From NCBI RefSeq assembly GCF_056712565.1, contig NZ_CM160072.1: a stretch of DNA of 64,000 nt, one strand, 5' to 3'. Made by a program: the position numbers. Of this stretch, positions 3,001 through 6,000 are shown one piece after another. The stretch's first letter is position 1. Every line of letters begins with the position of its first letter.

Positions 3001-6000
3001 CATCCCTGTAATCCCACACATATCTGCTGGCCGAACGACGCCAGTGCGCGTACGGAGGCAAGAGCAGCCCTGCACATGGCAGCGCTTGTGGTAACCTGGT
3101 TTAATCCGGTGATAAAGGCATTTTACATGCATCTGTCAGCAGCCGGAAAAACCAAAAAAATGGCGCTGGTTGACTGTATGCGTAAATTGCTGACCATCCT
3201 GAACGCAATGCTCAGAAAGAACGAAGAGTGAAATGAATCGTAGCATCATGTTGCTCCATAATTTTTACGTTCAAGACAGTTGATTATCGGCGCATATGAC
3301 TCAAAAAGAGCCTGATGATTGCCTCTTTTCCATAGGCTCTTTATCTGAAGTGAAGGAAGGCCCGGAAGAAAGCACTCGCTGGCATACGTGACTCCAGCTC
3401 AACCGGAGATAATCACCACTGTTATTTTTCTATTTAATAATAATCTCCTGAAAAACAGATATAGCAAAAATACAATCCGGCCAGATTTAATTCCGCATTC
3501 ATTACCAGAAATAATCAACATCACAACTATCATATCATTCAATAGTCACCGCTAAAATTTTATTATTTTCCTCTTCTTTACATAGAAATTGTCAACCTGT
3601 TTATTATGCCGCTTTAAATAGTTAATCACAAAACAACATCACCATTATTTACGTGTTTTATTTATTAATAACATGGTCATACGTTCTTTTTTTACGAGGA
3701 AATAATCAATTGATAAATTGTTTTTGGTCTTGATAGTCAAGTGAGAAACATTTTAATAAATGATAAAAATCCTAAATTCCTTGTTCATAATGTAGGGGTG
3801 TGTTAAATAGGTGGGCAAAATTTGGTTCCCCTTCTCGCCTGTAATATTGCAGCATCTTCGCACCTCCATGAGACATTGCGACTTAATAAGAAGGTGATAA
3901 GTCCTGCATATAAGCATGGACTGACCATGGTTTTATATTCATTAAAAATTTTGTTACAACCCATTGATTTAGCATAAATAAATTATAGTGGGTTCGGGTT
4001 TGTTGTGACTGTGGCATTATTTCCGTGCAAAGGAGCTGATATGTCTGAAAGACATTTACCTGATGACCAGAGCAGTACTATCGATCCATATCTAATTACC
4101 TCTGTTCGCCAGACTCTGGCAGAACAAGGCGCAGCATTACAAAACTTGTCTAAACAACTGGATTCCGGGCAGTACCAGCGTGTCCTTAATTTGATAATGA
4201 ACTGTAAAGGGCACGTTATTCTTTCGGGAATGGGTAAATCAGGGCATGTCGGTCGTAAAATGTCAGCGACGCTGGCCTCTACGGGTACGCCTAGTTTCTT
4301 TATTCATCCTGCAGAAGCTTTCCATGGCGATCTGGGCATGATTACGCCTTACGATCTTCTGATCCTTATTTCTGCCAGCGGTGAAACGGATGAAATCCTC
4401 AAGCTAGTTCCTTCACTGAAAAATTTCGGCAACCGAATTATCGCCATTACCAATAATGGAAATTCCACGCTGGCGAAAAATGCTGATGCCGTGCTGGAAC
4501 TCCATATGGCGAATGAAACCTGCCCGAATAATCTTGCACCAACAACGTCTACCACGCTGACGATGGCGATCGGCGATGCGCTGGCGATTGCCATGATCCG
4601 CCAACGCAAATTTATGCCGAATGATTTTGCGCGCTATCACCCGGGCGGTTCATTAGGTCGTCGCCTGCTGACCCGCGTTGCTGATGTCATGCAACATGAT
4701 GTTCCTGCGGTACAGCTGGATGCGTCATTTAAAACCGTGATTCAACGTATCACCAGCGGATGCCAGGGAATGGTGATGGTAGAAGACGCAGAAGGTGGGC
4801 TAGCGGGCATTATCACCGACGGTGACCTGCGTCGCTTTATGGAAAAAGAGGATTCTCTGACATCCGCCACGGCTGCGCAGATGATGACACGTGAACCGCT
4901 GACGCTACCGGAAGACACCATGATCATTGAAGCGGAAGAAAAAATGCAAAAACACCGTGTCTCAACGTTATTGGTGACCAACAAGGCAAATAAAGTCACT
5001 GGCCTTGTGCGCATTTTCGACTAATTAAGCAACGGGGTTCGAGAGGTTAGTCTCTCATTGAGTTTGCGCCCCACTGAAACTTTGATAATCGTTACATGTT
5101 GATAAAAGTGAAGTCTGCCGTATCCTGGATGCGTGCTCGTCTGTCTGCCATCTCACTGGCAGATATCCAAAAACACCTGGCGAAAATCATCATTCTGGCA
5201 CCGATGGCGATGCTGCTGATCTATCTGGCTATCTTCAGCCAGCCTCGCTATATGAGCGAGTCGAAAGTCGCCATTAAACGCTCGGATGATTTAAACAGCG
5301 GCAGCCTGAATTTTGGTCTGCTTCTGGGTGCCTCTAACCCCAGTTCCGCAGAAGATGCTTTGTATCTGAAAGAGTACATCAACTCGCCGGATATGCTGGC
5401 GGCGCTGGATAAGCAACTAAATTTTCGTGAAGCATTTAGCCACAGCGGGCTCGATTTTCTTAATCATCTTAGCAAGGATGAAACCGCAGAAGGATTCCTG
5501 AAGTACTACAAGGACCGTATCAACGTCTCGTATGACGATAAAACCGGATTACTGAATATTCAGACGCAGGGCTTTAGCCCGGAGTTTGCGCTTAAGTTTA
5601 ACCAGACCGTGCTGAAAGAGTCAGAGCGCTTTATCAATGAGATGTCACATCGCATCGCGCGTGACCAGCTTGCCTTTGCAGAAACGGAGATGGAAAAGGC
5701 ACGCCAGCGTCTGGACGCCAGCAAAGCGGAATTGCTCTCTTATCAGGACAACAACAACGTTCTGGATCCACAGGCACAGGCACAGGCGGCGAGCACGTTA
5801 GTCAATACGCTGATGGGCCAGAAGATCCAGATGGAAGCGGATCTGCGTAACTTGCTGACGTATCTGCGTGAGGACGCCCCGCAAGTAGTGAGTGCGCGTA
5901 ATGCGATTCAGTCATTGCAGGCACAAATCGATGAAGAACAAAGCAAAATCACTGCGCCACAGGGTGACAAGCTAAACCGTATGGCAGTGGATTTTGAAGA

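What the first reader, a model, noticed from the sequence alone, without database searches (positions are those of the whole stretch)
3055..3231. IS110-family transposase C-terminal remnant between island end and capsule locus
An in-frame stretch ending KKMALVDCMRKLLTILNAMLRKNEE* resembles the conserved C-terminus of IS110-family transposases, but no N-terminal catalytic domain or terminal repeats are present. It is a likely recombination scar from assembly of the pheV island / capsule junction.
Basis: partly seen in the sequence, partly recalled or inferred. Interest (0 to 1): 0.35.

Follow-up and report, generated by a model that had tools for sequence, protein, structure and literature searches.

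The report
Dead IS110 transposase fragment beside capsule genes
This is the decayed last fifth of an IS110-family insertion-sequence transposase gene, already annotated as a pseudogene in public E. coli genomes, which sits as a fixed fossil at the left edge of the group 2 (K1) capsule locus; it is ordinary.

Summary
Window 3043-3282 is the 3' end of an IS110-family insertion sequence. It covers codons about 251-322 of a 322-codon transposase and carries two inactivating stop mutations. The DEDD/RuvC domain, the catalytic serine and the whole left end are missing, so it cannot function. NCBI's PGAP pipeline already annotates 3049-3231 as "IS110 family transposase, incomplete, missing N-terminus" in UTI89, S88 and over 1,600 other complete E. 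coli genomes.

The interpretation needs one correction. The fragment is not a by-product of pheV island insertion. It lies about 190 bp outside the island's attR and is identical in strains whose pheV is intact and island-free. It belongs to the kps left flank, about 13 bp from where homology to a divergent kps locus begins. It is therefore a scar at the capsule-module boundary. Of 10 variable sites seen among seven copies, 9 are nonsynonymous, so the protein is not under constraint.

One side observation is unexplained. The 182 bp at 3161-3342 are far less polymorphic than both flanks across about 1,650 genomes. This stretch holds the remnant's 3' half, the IS end and a conserved hairpin.

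The parts
2830..2851 (+). attR of the pheV genomic island: an imperfect direct repeat of the pheV 3' end, TTCGATTCCGAGTCCGG-CACCA. This is the right end of GI-pheV and is context only, not part of the IS remnant.
   Evidence: The sequence was read directly. It matches the last 23 nt of K-12 pheV. The S88 GI-pheV end at 3,275,696 equals window 2851, with this attR sequence, in PMC11537424 Table 1. ARAGORN finds no intact tRNA here.
2860..2886 (+). pheV rho-independent terminator hairpin. Backbone DNA shared with K-12 runs to 2898.
   Evidence: Terminator-like site found. K-12 homology covers 2830-2898 at 95.8%.
2899..3042 (.). Spacer of unknown origin between the K-12-like backbone and the IS remnant. 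It is single-copy and found only at this locus.
   Evidence: A distant blastn search of 2899-3061 finds 1631 genomes, one place each, all at the kps flank. K-12 has no match.
3043..3261 (+). Coding-derived part of the IS110-family remnant, equivalent to residues about 251-322 of a 322-aa transposase. It covers the last third or so of the Transposase_20 domain plus the C-terminal tail. It carries a TGG-to-TGA change at 3229-3231 and a TAC-to-TAG change at 3241-3243. The original stop is TAA at 3259-3261.
   Evidence: tblastn gives 75% identity over 72 codons, E=2.7e-28. Also BLASTP, the DNA alignment and the relative's translation. PGAP annotates the pseudogene at 3049-3231. NF033542 E=6.5e-8.
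3262..3282 (+). Retained right terminus of the IS: TTTTTACGTTCAAGACAGTTG.
   Evidence: Homology to relatives in four different genomic contexts (window, L002, L004, L005) ends at this point and the flanks then diverge.
3305..3342 (.). Hairpin (AAAGAGCC...GGCTCTTT) 23 bp to the right of the IS end. On the minus strand it is followed by TTTTT, so it looks like a terminator. It belongs to the kps-module DNA, not to the IS.
   Evidence: Fold predictions. The hairpin is kept in the divergent PKF8 kps locus with an apparent compensatory A-T to G-C change.
3161..3342 (.). Low-diversity patch spanning the remnant's 3' half, the IS end and the hairpin. It is unexplained.
   Evidence: Identity is >=99% in 1663 of about 1676 kps-linked copies. 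Equal-length flanks give 473/1645 and 753/1687. In an 8-sequence alignment the patch has 1 variable site, against 4-11 per 100 bp in four of the six other segments and 2.6 in 3889-4040.

Best explanation
Window 3043-3282 is a non-functional fossil of an IS110-family insertion sequence, the family of bridge-RNA-guided recombinases typified by IS621.

Shown:
- Only the last 72 or so codons and the right terminus survive.
- Two stop codons have accumulated in what is left.
- The fragment travels with the kps locus rather than with the pheV island.

Inferred history:
- An intact element once inserted with its right end immediately to the left of the DNA that now forms the far-upstream region of kpsF.
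- A later deletion or illegitimate recombination removed the left 80% or so of the element, together with whatever lay to its left. That includes the left non-coding end (where the bridge RNA of IS110-subgroup elements is encoded), the DEDD/RuvC domain and the catalytic serine.
- This joined the remainder to the short spacer downstream of pheV.
- The fragment has since been inherited passively with the kps locus.

It can neither transpose nor encode an active protein.
For: Homology to IS110 transposases:
- Family and pairwise matches.
- DNA identity of 86-87% over 3062-3282 to full-length copies.
- The full-length relative (L002:2232-3200) has PF01548 at residues 12-155 and PF02371 at 196-278.
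- That relative aligns to the IS621 transposase structure 8wt6 over residues 29-319, E=1.2e-29.

What the remnant lacks:
- It corresponds only to residues 251-322. This is downstream of the Ser in the relative's 'RDSG' motif, which aligns with the IS621 'ESG' serine.
- No other piece of the element exists anywhere in the 64-kb window.

Decay:
- Stop mutations at 3229 and 3241 are shared by all copies examined.
- Of 10 variable sites among seven kps-linked copies, 9 are nonsynonymous and 1 synonymous.

Position and distribution:
- PGAP flags it as an incomplete pseudogene in every genome inspected.
- It is present with or without GI-pheV.
- It is present in about 1630 of about 1700 genomes that carry the kpsF upstream region.
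- It lies at about -773 to -534 from the PR1-1 transcription start. All mapped H-NS, SlyA and IHF sites lie within -224 to +140 (PMC8960920, PMC5738388).
Against: The 3' half of the remnant plus 60 bp of flank (3161-3342) is much less polymorphic than its surroundings. Pure neutral decay does not predict this.

The order of events, insertion then deletion, is inferred. I found no genome with a full-length element at this site.

The parent element could not be named because ISfinder is not available here. The closest intact copies are only about 87% identical in DNA.
Confidence: 0.93

Rival explanations
1. The remnant is dead as a transposase, but its 3' half together with the adjoining flank (3161-3342) has been co-opted as a cis-acting or RNA element. 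Candidates are a minus-strand terminator or insulator at the left edge of the kps regulatory region, or a distal site affecting PR1. On this reading, purifying selection explains the low diversity. This does not exclude the best explanation.
For: - The patch is >=99% identical in 1663 of about 1676 copies. Equal-length flanks give 29% and 45%.
- An 8-sequence alignment has 1 variable site where about 10 are expected.
- Hairpin 3305-3342 is retained with an apparent compensatory change in the 79-84% diverged PKF8 locus.
- On the minus strand the hairpin is followed by a T-run.
- The classic PR1 reporter fragment (-646 to +227) starts inside this patch (PMC5738388).
Against: - No sigma-70 promoter-like or terminator-like site was called inside the patch.
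- Fold z-scores are modest: -1.4 on the plus strand and -2.4 on the minus strand.
- There is no Rfam match.
- All known PR1 regulator sites lie at least 250 bp further downstream (PMC8960920).
- The patch boundaries were chosen after seeing the data.
- Local diversity in E. coli is patchy because of recombination, and a single gene-conversion tract or sweep could give the same picture.
- The PKF8 locus shares only the hairpin part, not the IS part.
Confidence: 0.17
2. The 51-codon ORF 3076-3231 (MAALVVTWFNPVIK...RKNEE) encodes a domesticated small protein derived from the transposase C-terminus.
For: An ATG-initiated ORF is intact in all eight copies examined.
Against: - 9 of 10 variable sites are nonsynonymous, including radical changes (I to K, L to Q, A to P, S to P to L).
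- The ORF ends at a stop codon created by mutation.
- No promoter-like site lies upstream.
- PGAP treats it as a pseudogene.
- The fragment lacks every catalytic residue.
Confidence: 0.02
3. The resemblance is a chance similarity in a random ORF.
For: The Pfam hit alone is sub-threshold: E=0.015, 16.1 bits against a cutoff of 21.3.
Against: - BLASTP E=8e-29.
- blastn E about 1e-68 to 1e-74 with 86-87% identity, including non-coding terminal bases.
- NF033542 E=6.5e-8, aligned to the very end of the profile.
Confidence: 0.005

Closest known systems
Unnamed IS110-family element of E. coli chromosomal islands (transposase WP_038349051.1, 322 aa, strain N1241; PGAP name 'IS110 family RNA-guided transposase')
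   Same: DNA identity is 86-87% over window 3062-3282. Protein identity is 74-75% over the last 62-72 codons. The 29 bases up to the right end are identical (CTCCATAATTTTTACGTTCAAGACAGTTG), and the natural stop is in the same position.
   Different: The relative is complete. It has about 180 nt of left non-coding end conserved between copies, the DEDD domain, the Transposase_20 domain and an intact ORF. The window copy has only the last 22% or so and carries two stop mutations. At 13% DNA divergence it is a related element, not necessarily the parent.
IS621 (IS110 family; bridge-RNA-guided recombinase; PDB 8wt6)
   Same: It is in the same protein family. The full-length relative aligns to IS621 over residues 29-319, E=1.2e-29. 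The remnant corresponds to the C-terminal helices that follow the catalytic-serine motif.
   Different: The remnant has no RuvC-like domain, no catalytic Ser and no bridge-RNA-encoding left end. It cannot work like IS621. Sequence identity to IS621 itself is low.
ISEc32 (IS110-like element on E. coli plasmids)
   Same: It is in the same family. DNA identity is about 73% over window 3061-3233.
   Different: It is much more distant than the chromosomal-island relative.
Other right-end-only relics of the same IS lineage, such as the 89-bp relic near ykgL in O111:H8 strains
   Same: It matches window 3198-3286 at 94% identity, retains the right terminus and has lost the rest.
   Different: It is at a different locus, is shorter and is unannotated.

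Membership tests
IS110 family insertion sequence (as a functional element) | N-terminal DEDD / RuvC-like catalytic domain (Pfam PF01548) | tested here: not met
   The remnant has no PF01548 match. tblastn of a full-length relative finds only residues 251-322 anywhere in the window. The relative itself has PF01548 at residues 12-155.
IS110 family insertion sequence (as a functional element) | Complete C-terminal Transposase_20 domain (PF02371) including the catalytic serine (IS621 S241 from my own knowledge of the published structure) | tested here: not met
   Only profile positions 60-86 of 87 are present. The relative's serine (residue 240, motif RDSG, aligned to the IS621 ESG motif) lies upstream of the remnant's first homologous residue, about 251.
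IS110 family insertion sequence (as a functional element) | Non-coding end encoding the bridge (guide) RNA | tested here: not met
   No left-end sequence is present in the window (blastn of L002:2041-3225). Only 21 nt of non-coding right end remain. Rfam gives no match in either the window or the relative, so the relative's bridge RNA itself was not demonstrated.
IS110 family (as evolutionary origin of the sequence, i.e. homology) | Significant sequence similarity to bona fide family members, collinear with the C-terminus | tested here: met
   NF033542 E=6.5e-8 at profile positions 281-342 of 343. BLASTP E=8e-29. blastn 86-87% identity over 221 nt. PGAP annotates it as an IS110 family transposase.
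IS110 family (as evolutionary origin of the sequence, i.e. homology) | Defined element terminus shared with other copies; no classical terminal inverted repeats expected | tested here: met
   The right end at 3282 coincides with the point where four independent contexts diverge. The left end is absent.
GI-pheV (pheV-integrated genomic island) | Located between pheV attL and the attR direct repeat | tested here: not met
   attR is at window 2830-2851. The published S88 island end equals window 2851 (PMC11537424). The remnant starts at 3043. It is also present in island-free strains.

The most novel reading that the evidence does not exclude
The 182-bp stretch 3161-3342 may be a functional element maintained by selection at the left border of the group 2 capsule locus. 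It consists of the distal half of the IS110 relic, the IS right end and the adjacent conserved hairpin. It could be a minus-strand terminator or insulator, or a distal regulatory or RNA element acting on the kps PR1 region. That would be a case of IS-end exaptation.
Probability: 0.15. Interest if true: 0.4.

Novelty: already known. Interest (0 to 1): 0.1.

Why it matters
It matters little. The fragment is a routinely annotated pseudogene.

It has modest value as a stable marker of the left boundary of the E. coli group 2 capsule module. It shows that the kps locus and the pheV island are separate acquisitions with separate boundaries.

The only item that could justify an experiment is the low-diversity patch overlapping the IS end. 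That patch lies inside the DNA fragment conventionally used as the kps PR1 reporter, and nobody appears to have examined it.

Tried and rejected
- **Rfam.** Window 2500-4100 gave only two sub-threshold chance hits in the pheV terminator region. The full-length relative's ends gave nothing.
- **Promoter and terminator scan of 2800-4100.** Nothing was called inside the remnant or the patch. Promoter-like hits were at shuffle expectation.
- **Scan of one genome per species (genome contigs).** An exact search for the IS-end/flank junction gave 0 hits. This gave no evidence for the junction outside kps-positive E. coli and no ancestral full-length occupant.
- **tblastn against plasmids.** The best true relatives are 76-78% identical over 72 aa. 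The single 95.8% hit is E. coli GI-pheV/kps DNA filed as a Klebsiella oxytoca plasmid.
- **Plus-strand ORF 3296-3391 (31 aa).** By my reading of the DNA alignment it is not conserved as a reading frame in the PKF8 locus. Indels shift the frame.
- **Minus-strand ORF 3249-3136 (37 aa, with a GGAG 4 nt upstream).** Its stop codon overlaps variable sites 3136 and 3137 and is lost in the majority haplotype. I did not pursue it.
- **Literature.** No paper in the searchable library links kpsF or pheV-kps with IS110. The 1996 Cieslewicz and Vimr paper was not retrievable.

Full report
**What is at the coordinates**

An ATG-initiated ORF of 51 codons runs 3076-3231. The reported sequence is really there.

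**Similarity to IS110 transposases**

- Pfam PF02371 (Transposase IS116/IS110/IS902) matches only weakly: E=0.015, 16.1 bits against a cutoff of 21.3. The match covers profile positions 60-86 of 87, the tail of the domain.
- NCBIfam NF033542 (transpos_IS110, 'IS110 family RNA-guided transposase') matches at E=6.5e-8, over profile positions 281-342 of 343.
- Megablast against 5,426 complete E. coli genomes finds the stretch in 2,437 of them. Every listed full-length match that carries an annotation is labelled 'IS110 family transposase'.
- In UTI89 and S88 the feature is a pseudogene flagged 'incomplete; partial in the middle of a contig; missing N-terminus'. Its coordinates correspond to window 3049-3231.

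The finding therefore reproduces an existing public annotation.

**The closest intact relative and the true extent**

A second class of hits, at 86-87% identity, covers window 3062-3282. These lie on IS110-family genes in unrelated chromosomal islands. In strain N1241 that gene is intact (WP_038349051.1, 322 aa; L002:2232-3200). Alignment shows four things:

- DNA homology begins near 3062. Protein-level homology begins at 3043, which is residue 251.
- A second stop (TAC to TAG) lies at 3241-3243.
- The original stop is TAA at 3259-3261. The ancestral C-terminus was ...RKNEEWNESYHHVAP*.

Homology continues for 21 more bases, to 3282. Relatives in four independent genomic contexts (window, L002, L004, L005) all diverge immediately after ...GACAGTT(G/A). 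Position 3282 is therefore the authentic right terminus of the element.

**What is missing**

- The intact relative has the DEDD/RuvC-like domain PF01548 at residues 12-155 and PF02371 at 196-278.
- It aligns to the solved IS621 bridge recombinase (8wt6) over residues 29-319, E=1.2e-29.
- In that alignment the relative's serine (residue 240, motif RDSG) pairs with the IS621 ESG serine. I know that serine as the catalytic S241 from the published IS621 structure (my own knowledge).
- The remnant starts at residue 251 or later. It therefore lacks all catalytic residues.
- It also lacks the roughly 180-nt conserved left non-coding end (L002 and L004 homology starts 182 nt upstream of the ATG). In IS110-subgroup elements that end encodes the bridge RNA (established knowledge, not shown here; Rfam has no match).
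- tblastn and blastn of the full element against the whole 64-kb window find no other fragment.

**Genomic setting**

The window is E. coli K1 DNA identical to S88, APEC O1 and other strains. Window position 1 equals S88 position 3,272,846.

| Window coordinates | Feature | Source |
|---|---|---|
| up to 2851 | end of GI-pheV (DUF957, DUF4942, EAL-domain genes) | |
| 2830-2851 | attR, TTCGATTCCGAGTCCGG-CACCA |; PMC11537424 Table 1 gives the S88 island end as 3,275,696 = window 2851 |
| to 2898 | pheV terminator, shared with K-12 | |
| 2899-3042 | unique spacer | |
| 3043-3282 | IS110 remnant | this report |
| from 4041 | kpsFEDUCS-neu-kpsTM | |
| 21097 | yghD, where K-12 homology resumes | |

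**Island scar or capsule-locus scar?**

- The identical remnant lies about 200 bp downstream of an intact pheV with no island in UTI89, C4 and F374.
- It also lies downstream of different island termini (DUF4942 or AbiEii).
- It stays in place when other IS elements insert to its right (IS21 in SCU-176 and AVS0713). It is partly eroded by an IS66 insertion in strain E70.
- About 1,630 genomes carry the spacer and remnant, and about 1,700 carry the kpsF upstream region. The remnant is thus an almost constant part of the kps left flank, independent of GI-pheV.
- A divergent kps locus in strain PKF8 lacks the remnant. It is about 79-84% identical in the PR1 region and sits in a different neighbourhood, with a tssB fragment and two hypothetical genes. 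Its homology to the window begins at about 3295, some 13 bp to the right of the IS end.
- The IS end therefore abuts the left edge of the conserved kps module.

This supports 'junction scar of the capsule locus' and contradicts 'scar of island/capsule assembly'.

**Is the remnant under protein-level constraint?**

Seven kps-linked copies (the window, the identical UTI89 copy, and six loci at 97.6-98.8% identity) show 10 variable sites in 3040-3290. Nine are nonsynonymous in the transposase frame, including I to K, L to Q, A to P and S to P/L. One is synonymous. Both stop mutations are shared by all copies. This is what a pseudogene looks like.

**Relation to capsule regulation**

The PR1-1 start site is 225 bp upstream of kpsF, at about window 3816. 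Mapped H-NS, SlyA and IHF sites lie between -224 and +140 (PMC8960920; PMC5738388). The remnant lies at about -773 to -534, outside every mapped element. The standard reporter fragment (-646 to +227) begins inside it, at about window 3170.

**An unexplained side observation**

The variable sites in the remnant all lie in 3050-3160.

- In an 8-sequence alignment of 2899-4040, the stretch 3161-3342 has 1 variable site. Other segments have 4-11 per 100 bp. About 10 variable sites would be expected in the stretch.
- Across the whole genome collection the stretch is >=99% identical in 1,663 of about 1,676 kps-linked copies.
- Equal-length flanks, queried with a central haplotype, reach >=99% in only 473 of 1,645 and 753 of 1,687 genomes.
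- The stretch contains the remnant's last 70 coding nt, the decayed tail, the IS end, and a hairpin at 3305-3342.
- That hairpin is followed by TTTTT on the minus strand. It is retained in PKF8 with what looks like a compensatory A-T to G-C change.

Against a functional reading:

- No consensus promoter or terminator was called there.
- Fold z-scores are modest, -1.4 and -2.4.
- Rfam is silent.
- The boundaries were chosen after seeing the data.
- A shallow local genealogy from recombination or a sweep could produce the same pattern.

I regard it as unexplained and give co-option about a 15% chance.

**Verdict**

It is already annotated in public genomes, mechanistically inert and evolutionarily unremarkable.

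- The right terminus is present.
- The stop codon is secondary.
- The relic belongs to the kps flank, not to the island junction.

Interest is low.

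Noticed in passing
window 3161-3342: A 182-bp stretch is nearly invariant: >=99% identical in 1663 of about 1676 kps-linked copies. Equal-length flanks reach that level in only 29% and 45% of genomes. The stretch covers the 3' half of the IS relic, the IS right end and a hairpin. The cause is unknown.
   Followed up: partly
window 3305-3342: An inverted repeat AAAGAGCC...GGCTCTTT forms a hairpin followed by TTTTT on the minus strand. It is conserved, with an apparent compensatory stem change, in the divergent kps locus of strain PKF8 (L016:2937-2973). It may be a minus-strand terminator at the left edge of the kps module.
   Followed up: partly
L016 (E. coli PKF8, NZ_CP156813.1 3597807-3604459): This is a divergent kps locus, about 79-84% identical in the kpsF upstream region. 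It lacks the IS110 relic. It lies about 2.2 kb from a phe-tRNA attR-like repeat (L016:665-686) that has a different terminator. A tssB pseudogene and two hypothetical genes lie in between. It suggests a second, independent placement of a kps module next to a phe-tRNA attachment site.
   Followed up: partly
L015 (NZ_LR890315.1, 'Klebsiella oxytoca plasmid 4', 29 kb): A record labelled as a K. oxytoca plasmid carries typical E. coli GI-pheV end genes (cbeA, DUF5983, DUF957), the IS110 relic and kpsFEDUCS, with E. coli-type protein accessions. It is probably contamination or a misassigned contig rather than a plasmid-borne capsule locus.
   Followed up: no
window 2899-3042: A 144-bp spacer lies between the K-12-like pheV terminator region and the IS relic. 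It has no match anywhere except this locus (one place per genome in 1631 genomes), and its origin is unknown. K-12 has an unrelated 101 bp at the equivalent position before yghD.
   Followed up: partly
L005:4001-4089 (E. coli O111:H8 7-54 11A) and about 98 other genomes: An unannotated 89-bp relic of the same IS lineage is 94% identical to window 3198-3286 and includes the right terminus. It lies near ykgL/ykgM. It is another right-end-only fossil.
   Followed up: no
L012 and L014 (strains SCU-176, AVS0713), L006 (strain E70): The region between the IS110 relic and kpsF is a recurrent target for other IS insertions. ISEc10 (IS21 family) inserts at about window 3485-3590. ISEc22 (IS66 family) truncates the relic at about window 3257. 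These insertions may separate PR1 from upstream DNA.
   Followed up: no
window 1129-2664: A 511-aa EAL-domain (c-di-GMP phosphodiesterase-type) protein with an N-terminal membrane or sensor region is the last gene of GI-pheV before attR. It follows the DUF957 and DUF4942 module.
   Followed up: no
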